Assembly: GCF_006345805.1 (NCBI RefSeq)
Contig: NC_043012.1
Span: forward strand, 26,784,001 to 26,848,000
Direction of reading: 5' to 3'
Origin: Octopus sinensis
Lineage: Eukaryota
Length of the DNA: 64,000 bases
Under the pieces are notes generated by a model. That model had not been told where the DNA came from and did not search any database. It saw only the letters and a program-made list of their open reading frames with translations. The stretch's first letter is position 1, and each line of letters begins with the position of its first letter. This document shows positions 8,106 to 54,655 of the stretch, piece after piece. Made by a program: the position numbers and the translations under genes.

Positions 8106-8518
8106 TGTTGGCAGGGCAGGACTGCTAGGTAGTCGGCCGTATGCTAGAAATAGATCATCAATGATCAAACTACAAAGAAAGTTCTCTAGAGGAAAAATTC
8201 AGCGAACACCAGAACTAAATTTGGCGGGCAGGGCAGATGAAAATTTATATAAAAAACAGAATTTATTGCATACCTCGGTTTCGGCATTTAACAAAAGAAT
8301 TACTTACATAATTCAAATGTCCGTGGCCTCAGCAGTACAATCGTTCAATGTAAATGCAATCTACAAAACTAACCCCAGCTTTCTGTGCCAAAACAGACAC
8401 GTGTTTAGTTTCTGGTGTTCGCTGAATTTTTCCTCTAGAGATCTTTCTTTGTAGTTTGATCGTTGATGATGTATTTCTAGCATACGGCAGACTACATAGC
8501 AGTCCTGCCCTGCCAATA
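8106..8518. mobile_element. Fold-back element with ~115-bp inverted arms enclosing a hammerhead motif, at the edge of a (TA)n tract
   Basis: Arm 8106-8220 (tgttggcagggcaggactgcta...) is the reverse complement of about 8404-8518. Confidence 0.85.
8265..8341 (-). ncRNA. Type I hammerhead ribozyme motif with one core substitution
   Basis: Minus strand: attgta CTGCTGA ggc...gcc GAAA cc-ga-gg TA tgcaat. Helix I is 6 bp. The core reads CUGCUGA instead of CUGAUGA. Confidence 0.6.
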
Positions 8519-8609
8519 TATATATATATATATATATATATATATATATATATATATATATATAGAAGAGAGAGAGAGAGGGGGGAGAGAGATAAGATAC
8601 ACATACACA

Positions 8610-8828
8610 CAAGTGAGGTACTGTAAAGTTCCTGGTTTTGGGTAAAAGAAAATATAAGAGGATCAGTTAATTATGACTTCATTCAATATATTCCTGTCTC
8701 TGATTCACGCACTTTTGCAGCAGTCCTTCAGTTTTTCTAAGTCCTGTAAAAGAACTCGGATGATCTGGCCTCCACCCAGGCCTTTCGTGATAGCCTTAAA
8801 GCAAGGAACTTTTCGGCATCCTTTCGTA
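8610..8828. mobile_element. Mariner-type MITE, degraded
   Basis: Imperfect TIRs ...ctgtaaagttcctggttt / aaagcaaggaacttttcggcatcctttcgta, ending at TA. Confidence 0.55.
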
Positions 8829-9082
8829 TATGTATGCATGTATGTATGTATGTAAGTATGTATGTATGTATGTATGTATGTATGTATGTATGTTGTATGT
8901 ATGTATGTATGCATGCATGTATGTACGTATGTGTGTTTGTATGTATATCATTATTCAATTTATCAATTTCTGATAGAGAAAGAGCCGGTTTCTAGCCTAG
9001 ACCCAAAAGCTCCTCCACTGAAATTTCAACGTCAACAGTAAGGTGTTTTGTATGTGTGTTTGTATGTATGCGTGCAGATTTG

Positions 9083-9240
9083 AAAGGTAAATCGACCGCG
9101 ATGGAATTTGAACTCAGAACGTAAAGAGAGAGGAAATACCTATTTCTTTACTACCCACAATGGGCTAAAAACAGAGGGGACAAACAAGGGCAGACAAACG
9201 GATTAAGTCGAGTACATCAATCCCAGTGCGTAACTGGTAC
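9083..9240 (-). mobile_element. SINE family A partial dimer (tail 2 joined to core)
   Basis: gaaatac|ctatttctttactacccac junction plus core fragments. Confidence 0.75.
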
Positions 9241-9701
9241 GCTGTAGAATTACTTTCTCTCATTCATATTGTTACTTTGATAGCAATGGTGTGCTGAGGT
9301 AAAATGAAAGGATTTAAAAGAAAATCATTGGTTTAAAATACTATGAAAACTGCAAATTAAAGAAATGGTAACAGGAGTAGCAATTCGTAGTTTTTCTTGG
9401 TTTATAGGATAAAACAACCTTCATTCTGCTACTGTATAATCTTGTAACACACAAACAGGCTTATCCAGTTATAGACATTATCTTGAATTCATACAGAGAT
9501 CCAGTAATATACACGCATCAAAAATACGAGTCTGCGTGATCGGGAACTAGTTGCTTACGTTTCAAATGATAGGATAAGGGGAAGATCGCAATACATTTGA
9601 TCAAGTGTGTGATTGATTATAGCTGGACGGGGCAAAACAACAATAGCAACAATAGTAACAAAAATGACAGTAGCAGCAGCAACAACGATAGCAACAGCAG
9701 T

Positions 9702-9891
9702 GGAGGCGCAATGCCCCAGTGGTTAGGGCAGCGGTCTCGCGGTCGTAAGAACGCGGTTTCGATTTCCAGACCGGGCATTGTGAGTGTTTATTGAGCATAA
9801 ACACCGAAGCTCCGCAAGGCTCCGGCGGGGTGGTGATGGTGGTGAAACCCGCTGTACTCTTTCACCACAACTTTCTCTCACTCTTTCTTCC
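9702..9891 (+). mobile_element. tRNA-derived SINE family C, 5' half
   Basis: A-box-like tgccccagtggttag and B-box-like ggtttcgatttcc. Homologous to 58520-58700 (reverse) and 60881-61060. Confidence 0.8.
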
Positions 9892-10186
9892 TACTACTGC
9901 CACAAAGCAGAGGAATCATGCGGTAACCCACTATGGTGTGGTAAAAACTTTCAGACCCTAGTCTAGATTGCGAAACCTCTGTACTCCAGGATGGTTCAGC
10001 TCTCCCCGCATTAAAAGCCACCGTTTACGGAATGAGGATAACAATGTAGCTTTCGCGCCCGTGCAACCGCCAATCTATCGCGTGTGGTGGGTAGATCTTC
10101 AAGTTGCCGCACGCATTCTTAGTAGCTTAGAGTAGGCTCGAATTGGAGATTATTCCTTGTGGCTAATGGCGCGACTCCTGATTGGG

Positions 10187-51609: not shown

Positions 51610-52930
51610 CATTATTACACAAACCGCCAAAACTCGCACTCATACACAATCACACGTACACACACACAACGCACATACATGTATACATACATACATATAT
51701 AAATCCACAGATACACACATATGTGTGTGTATGGGTGTGTGTAGAGAGGAGAGGAGGAGGAGGAAAGGGAGGAGGGGAGAGAGACAGAAAGGGAGAGAGA
51801 GAGTGGGACAGAAAGAGACAGAGAGAGAGGGGAGAAAGAGACAGAGAGAGAGAGGGTAGAGACAGAGAGAGAAGAGAGAGAGAGAGAGAGAGACAGAGAC
51901 AGATTAAAAGTGAATTAAAACCAAAAAGTGATTCAAAGAAATCGCTATCAATGTTGGCTAGTGCTTAGAAAACACATTTCTCATTATTTTGTTTCTTATG
52001 TATGTGTGCTTGTTATCATTGCTTGTTTCGATTTTGTTTTTAAGAGAGTTGAAATCGTGATACCGTTTAGAAATTTGTCGGCATGGTTCCAAAGTCTAAG
52101 AGGTATCGTTCTATAATAATCTGACAAAAGGTATGTCAACATATTTACCAATATGTAGATTTTTTTTGTTTCTCAACACTTTCACTTCTTCCCTCCCACT
52201 ATCACCCGCTTCGTCAGTGCATGTATACATATGTGCATGTATATATATATATATGTATGTATGTATGCATATATATATTATATGCATACATTATACACAA
52301 ACACGCCAAAACTCGCACTCATACACAATCACACGTACACACACACACGCACATACATGTATACATACATACATATATAAATCCACAGATACACACATAT
52401 GTGTGTGTATGGGTGGTAGATGTGAGTAGGGAGAGAGGGAGGAGGAGAAGGGAGAGGGGGAGAGAGACAGAAAGGGAGAGAGAGAGTGGGAGAAAGAGAC
52501 AGAGAGAGAGAGGGGGTAGACAGAGAGAGACAGAGAGACAGAGAGAGAGAGAGACAGAGACAGATTAAAAGTGAATTAAAACCAAAAAGTGATTCAAAGA
52601 AATCGCTATCAAATGTTGGCTAGTGCTTAGAAAACACATTTCTCATTATTTTGTTTCTTATGTATGTGTGCTTGTTATCATTGCTTGTTTCGATTTTGTT
52701 TTTTAAGAGAGTTGAAATCGTGATACCGTTTAGAAATTCTGTCGGCATGGTTCCAAAGTCTAAGAGGTATCGTTCTATAATAATCTGACAAAAGGTATGT
52801 CAACATATTTACCAATATGTAGATTTTTTTTTGTTTCTCAACACTTTCACTTCTTCCCTCCCACTATCACCCGCTTCGTCAGTGCATGTATACATATGTG
52901 CATGTATATATATATATATGTATGTATGTA
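51610..52930. repeat. ~660-bp near-identical tandem duplication
   Basis: gattaaaagtgaattaaaacc at 51902 and 52563. The copies differ mainly by small indels. Confidence 0.9.
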
Positions 52931-53334
52931 TGCATATATATATATATATATGCATGTATGTATAATATATATATATATATATATAAATAAATATATGCAT
53001 GTATGTATATATATGTATGCATGTTTATTTTTGCATGTATATATATATATATACATGCATATATATAGATATATGTATATATGTATACCTACACACACAC
53101 ACACCCACACATACATACACACACACACACACACACACATATATATATATATATATATATATCAAACGGTTTTACATACGCTTGTATTTGTATATATATG
53201 CATATATGTGCATGTGTGTGTGGGTGTAAAAGTTGTGCATTGTACGTATCTCTGATTTGTGCTTCTCGGAGTGTATTCACTATACGCAAGAATCTTCTTG
53301 ATCTGATAACATAGACGATAGTGATGATGGCAAT

Positions 53335-53540
53335 AATAGTAATAATAATAGTAATAATAATAATAATAATAATAATATAATAAAATAATATAGTAATATT
53401 AATAATAATAATAATAATAATAATACTAATAATAATAATAATAATAATATAATAATAATAATAATAGTAATATAATAATAATAATAATAATAATAATAAT
53501 AATAATAATAATAATAATAATAATAATAAAATAATAGTAA
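53335..53540. repeat. (TAA)n microsatellite
   Basis: Seen directly in the sequence. Confidence 0.95.
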
Positions 53541-53999
53541 TCATGTTCTTCATTTTTTTTTCTCGCTACCATTTTGTTAGCATTTTTTATTGATACAATT
53601 ATTGTCGATGCTTTCGTAGTTGTTTTTGCTGAAATTTATGATAAAAATAATCATGAGAAGAAGTTGACTTATAGAAAAAATACCTCTGTGTCAAAATATA
53701 ATAGAAGTTGCAGAAAAAAATTACTTTAGATACAAATATACATATGTGCGTGCGAGCATGTGTGTGTGTGTGTATGTGAGCGTGTTATATAGTATGTTGT
53801 ACAGTATTTATATGAAAATAGTATTGTTTTTTGATCTTTTGGCAGAAGTAATATTAACTTGTAAAAACTCAATACAGAGACGAAAGTAGAGTGAATTCAC
53901 ATATTTTAGCCTGGGTATAAATTTCTGATTCTAATTCGGCATTTAAACTGATCTCAGGGTGCGCCACTGACGCAGATAAGCTGGGAAGATTGAAGTCAT

Positions 54000-54160
54000 T
54001 CTCTCTCTCTCTCTCTCTCTCTCTCTCTCTCTCTCTATCTCTCTATCTATCTATCTATCTATCTATCTATCTATCTATCTATCTATCTATCTATCTATCT
54101 ATCTATCTATCTATCTATCTATCTATCTATCTATCTATCTATCTATCTATCTATCTATCT
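54000..54160. repeat. (TC)n(TATC)n microsatellite
   Basis: Seen directly in the sequence. Confidence 0.97.
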
Positions 54161-54242
54161 GGTCCTGGTCAGGTATAGTCTAATGAAGTACCATGCTAAT
54201 GTTTAAAACCACAAATTTATGTAAATTTTACTTCGAACTTCC

Positions 54243-54655
54243 AAGATTTTATGTCCGTATCAAAATCAATGAGTATATTAAAATATGCGGATTGTGAATG
54301 TATAGCGGTAATACAGATAGATCGGAAAGTTGGTATAAAATGATTTTTAAAAGGAATCTTGTGCAGGTGTAAAGTCTGACGGCCGTTTCGGGAAGATATA
54401 GGTTGGTATGGGCGAGTTAATTCCAACCATAACAATCATCTATATTTCTCTCATCAGAGTTAATCTAAAGGATTTATAAAAGAGTTATTTAAATCTTAAA
54501 GCTTTAAGAAACGGCCGTCAGACATTGCACCTGATCAAGATTCCTTTTAAGTTCATTTGATACTAACTTTCTCATTTATTTGGATTACCGCTATACATTC
54601 ACCATCCGCATACTTTAATATCCTCTTTGATGTTAATAATACTGACATACAATCT
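54243..54655. mobile_element. Fold-back element with ~145-bp diverged inverted arms and a hammerhead at the inner junction
   Basis: 54243-54388 pairs with 54508-54655 (gaatgtatagcggtaat / attaccgctatacattc; gtctgacggccgtttc / gaaacggccgtcagac). Confidence 0.75.
54374..54460 (-). ncRNA. Type I hammerhead ribozyme, intact core, long helix II
   Basis: Minus strand: ct CTGATGA gagaaatatag...ctatatcttccc GAAA cggccg TC ag. Palindromic helix III, GUC triplet, short helix I. Confidence 0.75.

What the first reader, a model, noticed from the sequence alone, without database searches (positions are those of the whole stretch)
8106..54655. Recurrent non-coding fold-back elements carrying hammerhead ribozymes, mostly inserted in (TA)n
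Seen: six apparently unrelated inverted-repeat elements (8106-8518, 19568-20135, 23087-25975, 42299-42698, 46318-46514, 54243-54655). Each contains a CUGANGA...GAAA...UH hammerhead core or a close variant, usually with a palindromic helix III, and five abut (TA)n. Further solo motifs occur at 19326, 21581, 26144 and 45555. Known: Penelope-like elements (PLEs) carry minimal type I hammerheads with palindromic helix III in their pseudo-LTRs and can form inverted ends. Inference: this is a dense, diverse population of short, ORF-less, ribozyme-bearing PLE derivatives (retrozyme-like). They would be mis-annotated as MITEs and may be mobilised by the GIY-YIG PLEs whose remnants lie at 40840-41285 and 44640-44900.
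Basis: partly seen in the sequence, partly recalled or inferred. Interest (0 to 1): 0.8.

Follow-up and report, generated by a model that had tools for sequence, protein, structure and literature searches.

The report
Penelope fold-backs, many from spliced RNA
The six hairpin-like elements are head-to-head insertions of Penelope-type jumping genes (four are ends of protein-coding elements, two are short non-coding units) whose families carry predicted self-cutting hammerhead RNA motifs, and one family has over a thousand matches elsewhere in the genome that lack its intron exactly, likely copied from spliced RNA, which bears on the old puzzle of why these elements keep their introns.

Summary
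All six fold-backs are real. Each belongs to a repeat family whose commonest sequence has a type I hammerhead (HHR) layout, but five of the six window copies carry lesions; only 19578-20135 passes. They are neither MITEs nor all ORF-less. E3 (23088), E5 (46318) and E6 (54243) are 5'-truncated ends of Hydra-type Penelope-like elements (PLEs); E4 (42299) is a Neptune-type end. Only E1 (546-nt unit) and E2 (481-nt unit) are retrozyme-like. Inverted ends, one-sided tails, (TA)n targets and PLE hammerheads are published. Not found in print: the E3 parent has a 23-nt first exon and a ~1.8-kb GT-AG intron just before the HHR. The genome holds 1,422 exact matches to the spliced junction against 1,070 to the unspliced acceptor. 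Spliced copies are mostly ~400-bp hairpins ending near an initiator-like A. All 36 two-armed copies scored have one far and one near 3' end, and no scorable copy mixes spliced and unspliced arms. Likely mechanism: both nicked target strands prime cDNA on one uncleaved sense RNA; priming near the 5' end of spliced mRNA gives short MITE mimics, while priming in the downstream repeat keeps the intron. No RNA or cleavage data.

The parts
7996..8518 (-). E1: insertion of an ORF-less 546-nt tandem unit (retrozyme-like). Long arm with 110-nt tail 7996-8411, short inverted arm 8410-8518, (TA)n on both sides
   Evidence: three-copy array at 546-nt spacing; longest ATG ORF 43 aa
8266..8342 (-). E1 type I hammerhead; this copy has A6->C in the first core box and a helix II change
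19578..20135 (-). E2: insertion of an ORF-less 481-nt tandem unit. Long tail-less arm 19578-19992, short tail-bearing inverted arm 19992-20135
19738..19822 (-). E2 hammerhead, the only intact one among the six window copies (C.A pair at the base of helix II, palindromic helix III)
23088..25960 (-). E3: 5'-truncated, unspliced copy of a young Hydra-type PLE (unit ~6.3 kb). Long tail-less arm 23088-25656 (sense on minus strand), short tail-bearing arm 25656-25960 (sense on plus strand)
25042..25064 (-). E3 inferred first exon (23 nt), starting at the A of an initiator-like YYANWYY
23232..25041 (-). E3 GT-AG intron (1,810 nt here; 1,768-1,828 nt in six other copies). Retained in this copy; the spliced junction has 1,422 exact matches in the genome
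23175..23222 (-). E3 left-arm hammerhead, one A of GAAA missing
25746..25792 (+). E3 right-arm hammerhead, 4-nt duplication at GAAA
42299..42698 (.). E4: fold-back of the 3' end of an old Neptune-type PLE; family hammerhead is the U3-A8 variant; both arms here are damaged
46318..46514 (+). E5: short fold-back of the 3' end of a Hydra-type PLE, folded at the 5' strand of hammerhead helix I; both cores damaged
54243..54816 (.). E6: fold-back of the 3' end of an old Hydra-type PLE; hammerhead on the minus strand (box 54451-54457, 2-bp helix I); tail-bearing arm ends at ~54816
26110..26235 (+). Solo 5'-truncated 3' end of a Neptune-type PLE with an intact U3-A8 hammerhead (26147-26189), between (TA)n runs
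19323..19402 (+). Solo damaged hammerhead of an old family with a canonical core; link to an ORF not shown
21581..21612 (-). Solo minimal hammerhead-like motif with family-conserved U4->C and an extra A before helix II; parent not traced
40947..41225 (-). Decayed Hydra-type GIY-YIG endonuclease piece (CxCX5C linker)
   Evidence: tblastn E 3e-7 to the E6 family
44680..44895 (+). Decayed Neptune-type endonuclease piece
   Evidence: tblastn E 5e-7 to the E4 parent

Best explanation
The six elements are head-to-head insertions of Penelope-like retroelements (four are 5'-truncated ends of RT/GIY-YIG-coding families, two are ORF-less tandem units likely carried by such enzymes), likely made when both nicked strands of a (TA)n target prime cDNA on one uncleaved sense RNA at two fixed sites downstream of the hammerhead and the two cDNAs are then joined at their inner ends. 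Shown: family membership, ORF links, two discrete 3' ends per family, variable inner junctions, and in E3 a precise GT-AG excision in about half of the junctions. Inferred: in E3 the mRNA starts 23 nt before a donor and loses a ~1.8-kb intron. Because the priming sites lie only about 150 and 220 nt into exon 2, priming at this 5' copy runs off at the RNA start and leaves a ~400-bp hairpin that mimics a MITE. Priming at the downstream copy of the same sites, where the intron is rarely spliced, gives the long intron-keeping copies such as the one in this window. The hammerhead is carried along and has usually not cut the template.
For: ORF links; Atlas look-alikes carry RVT_1 (12-17% of members) and GIY-YIG (33%). 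Hydra diagnostics DKT, CxCX5C, CxxC/CxH in E3 (against the text). One far and one near end in 36 of 36 two-armed E3 insertions (60 loci, duplicates dropped, 15 one-armed or too long; L354 may pair two neighbouring copies). The same pattern is seen by eye in E1, E2 and E5. One template per insertion: 22 spliced/spliced, 1 unspliced/unspliced, 0 mixed, 13 not scorable; six long copies and the window copy are unspliced in both arms. E5 arms share their helix II loop letters in 25 of 25 scorable of 29 copies. Some far arms stop at reference positions 44-83, before or about the near site, as twin priming predicts. Splicing: the junction joins a GTAAGT donor to a TTAG acceptor with no microhomology; 1,422 against 1,070 exact matches, controls 0; 16 of 29 distinct insertions in a set chosen by the 3' end only. 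It occurs in three exon-1 variants, each also present before a GTAAG donor in long copies. 265 junctions reach the initiator A and only 26 carry the next three bases, against 574 unspliced donors that do. Uncleaved template: 57 of 75 spliced arms hold a whole core; E5 has 493 perfect hairpins at the AGCT 5' of the core against 9 at the AGCT beside the cut site. In vitro, a lizard PLE extends both strands, starts at two internal sites and needs no HHR cleavage (PMC11167929).
Against: No RNA evidence, so promoter, splicing and priming are read from DNA only. Spliced copies are shown for E3 alone. In E6 an apparent switch at the acceptor was a sister coding subfamily; E1, E2, E4 and the solo families showed none among the copies held. 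In E5 no first exon was found, and the apex inserts can be read as snap-back copies of the core box. 26 spliced junctions extend past the inferred start, by 6-358 nt in the 12 loci seen, so the downstream or read-through intron is sometimes spliced. One E4 copy (L105) has a tail at both ends. No enzyme partner was found for E1 or E2; an E1-E3 tail likeness was not significant (293 of 500 shuffles). Pfam found no RT or GIY-YIG domain in the E3 pieces. The E3 ORF in L220 lies in three frames, so no intact source copy is shown.
Confidence: 0.72

Rival explanations
1. Same elements, but the inverted arm is made by snap-back: one cDNA folds on itself at its 3' end and is copied back to the near site; long palindromes later lose part of their centre.
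For: Both arms always agree in splice state and private letters. Apexes hold short templated inserts and perfect palindromes. Self-priming was proposed for rotifer PLEs (PMC3846280).
Against: The tail-bearing arm is often the shorter one (305 nt against 2.6 kb in the window; down to about 20-80 nt in L334, L339, L351, L368), which needs a second deletion each time. L329 has two spliced arms around ~620 nt of unrelated DNA. Both strands are extended in vitro.
Confidence: 0.15
2. The short spliced E3 hairpins are a self-propagating non-autonomous family founded by one or a few spliced retrocopies, transcribed from their own initiator and copied again.
For: They are numerous and begin at the inferred start, so they may keep a promoter. 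One exon-1 variant is commoner among the spliced arms held than among the long copies held (samples biased).
Against: Three exon-1 variants and both helix III variants are also found in long unspliced copies; every apex differs. This rival still needs splicing and PLE enzymes, so it changes the number of events, not their kind.
Confidence: 0.08
3. One reading: all six are ORF-less retrozymes that self-cleave, circularise and are moved by PLEs.
For: Fits E1 and E2: closed tandem units with one hammerhead each and no ORF, as in published non-LTR retrozymes (PMC7229834).
Against: E3-E6 run into coding sequence. The E1 5' ends printed do not pile up at the cut site, and E5 folds there are rare.
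Confidence: 0.03
4. They are MITEs or fold-back DNA transposons with chance hammerhead-like words.
For: Inverted ends and TA flanks; E5 and spliced E3 copies are nearly uniform in size.
Against: Arms vary from tens to thousands of bases, the two ends differ by a tail, families run into RT/GIY-YIG ORFs, a spliceosomal-type intron is removed, and family cores pass a descriptor that shuffles rarely pass.
Confidence: 0.02

Closest known systems
Hydra-clade Penelope-like elements (Craig et al. 2021, PMC8557442; a Hydra-1_Obim from an octopus is listed in its supplement)
   Same: C-terminal GIY-YIG, DKT, CxCX5C linker, CxxC/CxH motifs, canonical hammerhead, (TA)n target, inverted 5'-truncated copy, tail at one end.
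   Different: Described as generally under 3 kb; the E3 unit is ~6.3 kb with a ~3.3-kb non-coding end that holds a 1.8-kb intron, and E5 has ~3.7 kb of microsatellite-rich end. Tails are about 30-170 nt. No spliced genomic copies are reported in the passages read.
Drosophila virilis Penelope (Schostak et al. 2008, PMC2377424; Cervera and de la Pena 2014, PMC4209133)
   Same: Start site in the terminal repeat, short first exon, 5'-UTR intron whose end lies at hammerhead helix I, inverted terminal copies; 2-bp helix I as in E6.
   Different: Intron 75 bp against ~1.8 kb. Penelope is described as keeping its intron on transposition, whereas here spliced junctions outnumber unspliced ones.
Poseidon PLE of Anolis in vitro (Frangieh et al. 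2024, PMC11167929)
   Same: Both target strands cut and extended, two internal RT start sites that bound the tail, AT-rich target, hammerhead cleavage not needed.
   Different: Other clade. In vitro only; the two parts read do not treat how inverted arms form, whether one RNA serves both, or spliced templates.
Minimal PLE hammerheads (Cervera and de la Pena 2014, PMC4209133)
   Different: E1 and E5 have true helix III stems; E1, E2 and E6 have long helix II inserts.
Animal non-LTR retrozymes (Cervera and de la Pena 2020, PMC7229834; Li et al. 2026, bioRxiv 10.64898/2026.07.22.740005)
   Same: E1 and E2 are ORF-less tandem units with one type I hammerhead per unit.
   Different: Units of 546 and 481 nt are above the 150-450 bp of the first paper but inside the 51-972 bp of the second. 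Here they are dispersed, mostly 0.5-1.5 units long, with the full PLE insertion signature (two 3' ends, inverted arm, TA target). Cleavage and circular RNA untested.
LINE-1 twin priming (recalled; seen only in the search listing)
   Same: Two primers on one RNA, inverted product, microhomology joining.
   Different: In L1 the two cDNAs cover separate parts of the RNA; here they overlap and start at two fixed internal sites, giving an inverted duplication.

Membership tests
EN+ Penelope-like elements (E3, E4, E5, E6) | RT with C-terminal GIY-YIG endonuclease upstream of the terminal repeat | tested here: met
   E3: RT and EN pieces in L220. E6: RT and EN pieces. E4: RT end and EN. E5: EN only. 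Pfam alone found neither domain.
EN+ Penelope-like elements (E3, E4, E5, E6) | Partial tandem (pseudo-LTR), inverted 5'-truncated copy, one-sided tail | tested here: met
   L216 and L220 repeat the 3' end after 6.3 kb; 36 of 36 far/near in E3; one E4 exception.
EN+ Penelope-like elements (E3, E4, E5, E6) | Type I hammerhead motif in the terminal repeat | tested here: met
   Family-level pass rates; most window copies are damaged.
EN+ Penelope-like elements (E3, E4, E5, E6) | RT groups with PLE/telomerase RTs in a tree | not tested
   No reference PLE proteins were on hand.
Hydra clade (E3, E5, E6) | CxCX5C linker before the endonuclease | tested here: met
   E3 and E6; not seen for E5, whose copy breaks before the linker.
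Hydra clade (E3, E5, E6) | DKT in place of DKG; CxxC and CxH in the EN, no CCHH | tested here: met
   DKT in E3; CxxC and CxH in E3 and E5.
Hydra clade (E3, E5, E6) | N-terminal RWK motif | tested here: inconclusive
   E3 reads RIKWK.
Hydra clade (E3, E5, E6) | Insertion into (TA)n | tested here: met
   E3 ends: 25 of 47 left and 34 of 47 right flanks TA-like against 6.6% background (far ends were set too short there, so likely an undercount).
Neptune clade (E4, solo 26110) | CX2-5CxxC linker and CCHH-type EN at the C terminus | tested here: inconclusive
   CxxC and both histidines are visible in decayed copies L226 and L227, with the EN just before the 3' end; the cysteines inside the EN are each lost in one copy.
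Non-LTR retrozymes (E1, E2) | ORF-less tandem unit with one type I hammerhead per unit | tested here: met
Non-LTR retrozymes (E1, E2) | Self-cleavage and monomer or circular RNA | not testable with these tools
   No run on record as RNA was listed; no bench data.
Non-LTR retrozymes (E3-E6) | No coding sequence | tested here: not met
MITE / fold-back DNA transposon | Fixed, symmetric terminal inverted repeats and fixed size | tested here: not met
   Ends differ by a tail and arm lengths vary.
MITE / fold-back DNA transposon | Ends shared with a transposase-coding element | tested here: not met
   Ends are shared with RT/GIY-YIG elements instead for E3-E6; no coding partner of any kind was found for E1 or E2.

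The most novel reading that the evidence does not exclude
Penelope-like elements do reverse-transcribe their spliced mRNA, and often: internal priming next to the hammerhead turns the 5' end of the mRNA into dead-end ~400-bp hairpins, while only the downstream, mostly unspliced repeat yields long copies. Intron retention would then follow from where priming happens and need no antisense template. Each inverted insertion would be an overlapping twin-priming event on one RNA, and the hairpin apexes would be a genomic record of PLE start sites and splice junctions (E5's 493 identical apexes would mark another RNA 5' end). ORF-less retrozymes (E1, E2) would enter the genome by the same route.
Probability: 0.55. 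Interest if true: 0.78.

Novelty: new variant of a known kind. Interest (0 to 1): 0.6.

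Why it matters
Why PLEs keep introns, how their inverted ends form and what their hammerheads do are stated as open in the papers read (PMC8557442, PMC3846280). The E3 family gives countable genomic evidence on all three: spliced sense RNA is copied, both arms come from one molecule, and the template is mostly uncut. 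These are sharp predictions for the existing in vitro PLE assay. E1 and E2 show the PLE insertion signature on ORF-less retrozyme-like units, which supports mobilisation by PLE enzymes more directly than co-occurrence does. For annotation, hundreds of short hairpins in this genome would likely be filed as MITEs although they are retro-insertions.

Tried and rejected
Rfam at gathering threshold: 0 hits. Strict hammerhead scans missed most family motifs because the window copies are damaged and helix III sizes vary. The window-level motif count is not clearly above shuffles. Minimum-energy folds of seven window motifs gave no clear hammerhead fold; only E1 folded better than shuffles, z -2.6. 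Pfam found no RT or GIY-YIG in five pieces. Motif at 45555 rejected; hits at 60214 and 36035 taken as chance and not followed. A spliced form of E6: rejected, it was a sister coding subfamily. A first exon for E5: not found in five long copies. E1 or E2 as relatives of the coding parents: no match to 14 parent loci except a diverged E1-like neighbour in L218; tail likeness to E3 not significant. A pile-up of 5' ends at the cut site: not seen for E1, rare for E5. A splice acceptor lies 0-25 nt before the core in seven families, but such sites are common in AT-rich DNA and I ran no control, so it is not counted as evidence. Sequencing runs: no RNA holder listed; no reads were laid, so expression is open. 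Earlier findings of this scan: none returned. Literature: ten searches; of these 73, 85, 104 and 113 were aimed at spliced or intronless PLE copies and listed no such report. Arkhipova et al. 2003, Arkhipova 2006 and Evgen'ev and Arkhipova 2005 were not read, and most subscription papers are outside the library.

Full report
Setting. The window lies in a 2.7-Gb, microsatellite-rich animal genome. Its short interspersed repeats look like those of octopuses; that is recalled and comes from no call. I name the six elements E1 (8106), E2 (19568), E3 (23087), E4 (42299), E5 (46318) and E6 (54243).

Observation. All six are fold-backs and are unrelated to each other. E1 and E6 extend further than listed, by tails of about 110 and 160 nt. 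Rfam has no hit. The number of hammerhead-like motifs in the window is 3 against 0.27+/-0.60 (strict, 60 shuffles) or 3 against 0.53+/-0.88 with a maximum of 4 (relaxed, 30 shuffles), so the window alone is weak evidence. Copies from the rest of the genome settle it. With one copy scored per locus, the core and three helices are intact in 23 of 30 (E1), 17 of 30 (E2), 29 of 30 (E3), 6 of 22 (E4), 38 of 53 (E5) and 10 of 30 (E6), while shuffled elements pass in 0-6 of 300. These loci were the best matches to the window copy, not a random sample. In the window only E2 and the solo motif at 26150 are intact. The motif at 45555 is not a hammerhead.

What the families are. Following copies away from their shared 3' end, E6 runs after ~0.5 kb into GIY-YIG and RT pieces. 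E3 runs after ~3.3 kb of CA-rich non-coding DNA into an RT-EN reading frame, broken into three frames in L220, and the unit repeats after 6.3 kb. E5 reaches an EN ~3.7 kb upstream in one copy, through sequence shared with a second copy. E4 reaches an EN after ~0.8 kb and the end of an RT. E3 has DKT, a CxCX5C linker and the CxxC/CxH motifs, E6 the same linker and E5 the same EN motifs; these mark the Hydra clade (PMC8557442 section 11; an octopus member is in its supplement). E4 and the solo element at 26110 have a Neptune-type EN. Pfam saw neither domain; Atlas neighbours carry RVT_1 in 12-17% and GIY-YIG in 33% of members. E1 and E2 instead close on themselves after 546 and 481 nt, have no ATG ORF above 56 aa, and occur as partial tandems. 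PLE protein hits near some E1 loci lie outside the (TA)n-bounded insertions.

Shape of the insertions. Each family has two discrete 3' ends, far (with tail) and near. In E3, 36 of 36 two-armed insertions have one of each (60 loci, duplicates dropped, 15 one-armed or longer than the stretch held; L354 may pair two neighbours). E1, E2 and E5 look the same by eye; one E4 copy has two tails. Either arm can be the longer. TA-like flanks occur at 25 of 47 left and 34 of 47 right E3 ends against 6.6% of background positions.

Spliced copies. In 30 E3 loci chosen only by their near 3' end (29 distinct insertions), 16 leave the parent at the same base, 13 nt before helix I, and continue into a sequence that lies ~1.8 kb upstream in the parent. 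That sequence ends at a GTAAGT donor and the break follows a TTAG acceptor; the interval is 1,768-1,828 nt in six long copies and 1,810 nt in the window. The junction has no microhomology. Genome-wide there are 1,422 exact matches to the joined form and 1,070 to the unjoined acceptor, with 0 for reversed controls; a two-armed copy counts twice. The joined form comes in three first-exon variants, each also found before a GTAAG donor. Joined copies end at or shortly before the A of a YYANWYY word: 265 reach it and 26 carry the next three bases, against 574 unjoined donors that do. The 12 loci fetched of those 26 extend 6-358 nt further. Both arms agree: 22 joined/joined, 1 unjoined/unjoined, none mixed, 13 not scorable, and six long copies plus the window copy are unjoined in both arms. 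The window's E3 is itself unspliced. No other family showed such copies.

E5 hot spot. E5 folds back at the 5' strand of helix I in 14 of 30 loci chosen by the 3' end (counted by eye) and in 5 of 19 insertions taken in genome order. There are 493 perfect hairpins at this AGCT and 9 at the AGCT beside the cut site, among 4,545 core matches. Apex inserts differ from copy to copy and the two arms share their variant letters in 25 of 25 scorable copies, so each hairpin seems to be made anew. The site follows a possible acceptor, but no first exon was found; an RNA 5' end here is inferred only.

Mechanism. Shown: families, ORF links, two 3' ends, variable apexes, precise GT-AG loss, agreement of the arms. 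Taken from the literature: a PLE protein cuts and extends both strands of AT-rich DNA, starts at two internal sites and does not need hammerhead cleavage (PMC11167929). Inferred: both strands prime on one sense RNA and the cDNAs are joined head to head; priming near the 5' end of spliced mRNA gives the short hairpins; priming in the downstream repeat gives long intron-keeping copies; the template is mostly uncut (57 of 75 spliced arms hold a whole core). I put this at 0.72. Snap-back of a single cDNA (0.15) explains the agreement of the arms but needs an extra deletion whenever the tail-bearing arm is the shorter. Self-copying of spliced hairpins (0.08) changes only the number of events. Pure retrozymes (0.03) and MITEs (0.02) are excluded for E3-E6.

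Comparison with what is known. Pairs of hammerheads 100-700 bp apart on opposite strands, the U3-A8 variant, a 2-bp helix I and an intron ending at helix I are all in PMC4209133. Inverted copies, one-sided tails and (TA)n targets are in PMC8557442. A U.U pair at the base of helix II, as in E5, occurs in a retrozyme that cleaves in vitro (PMC7229834). Intron retention is called unexplained, and an antisense template was proposed to account for it and for head-to-head ends (PMC3846280). I found no report of spliced genomic PLE copies in searches; a 2026 octopus repeat annotation has no occurrence of hammerhead, ribozyme or splic- in its main text (PMC13282606).

What I saw of each paper. PMC11167929: parts 1-2 of 4. 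PMC4209133: parts 1-2 of 4. PMC7229834: parts 2-3 of 6. bioRxiv 10.64898/2026.07.22.740005: parts 1-3 of 5; its supplements were not seen and might list such families. PMC8557442: passages, section 11 and rows of one supplementary file that was cut when stored. PMC3846280: passages and Discussion. PMC2377424, PMC13282606 and PMC12910113: passages only. L1 twin priming and the initiator consensus are recalled.

Verdict. Real features, members of known kinds (Hydra- and Neptune-type PLEs; two retrozyme-like units), with mostly damaged ribozymes in this window. The part that lifts it is the spliced, single-template hairpins of the E3 family, which make intron retention and inverted-end formation directly testable. 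It rests on one family and on DNA alone. Novelty: new variant of a known kind. Interest 0.6.

Noticed in passing
window 7838-7965: A 3'-end fragment of the E3 family sits just left of E1, separated by (TA)n; E3 and the solo element at 26110 are likewise stacked in one TA run, as are E5 and the element at 46132-46238. PLE ends appear to nest in TA runs.
   Followed up: partly
window 34382-34892: Another fold-back (98% arms) with a SINE-like piece inside and a CAGATGA...GAAA motif in both arms; possibly a further PLE end.
   Followed up: no
window 54817-55358 and 46132-46238: A family with ~59-nt inverted ends abutting TA, present twice in the window; no hammerhead seen.
   Followed up: partly
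window 35008-37034: Fold-back of two decayed LINE-like RT 3' ends (81% arms over ~760 nt).
   Followed up: no
window 7559-7789 and 21910-22155: Two copies of another TA-flanked family with a GAAA-palindrome-TA motif at 7576 but no first core box in the window copies.
   Followed up: no
L329:1296-2310: Two spliced E3 arms enclose ~620 nt of unrelated DNA: capture during joining or a later insertion.
   Followed up: partly
L220:5270-5570: Asparagine-rich stretch between RT and EN of the E3 parent, recalling the N-rich inserts described in rotifer PLEs.
   Followed up: no
L218:5200-5650: A diverged E1-like fold-back (76% over 96 nt), so E1 has a sister family.
   Followed up: partly
G000:C1 and C2, pairs of E3 donors ~0.8-1.0 kb apart: Some long E3 copies hold the first-exon/donor region twice, an internal duplication of the inferred promoter.
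   Followed up: no
window 41390-41990: Decayed mariner-like transposase piece beside an assembly gap at 41286-41385 (read; name recalled).
   Followed up: no
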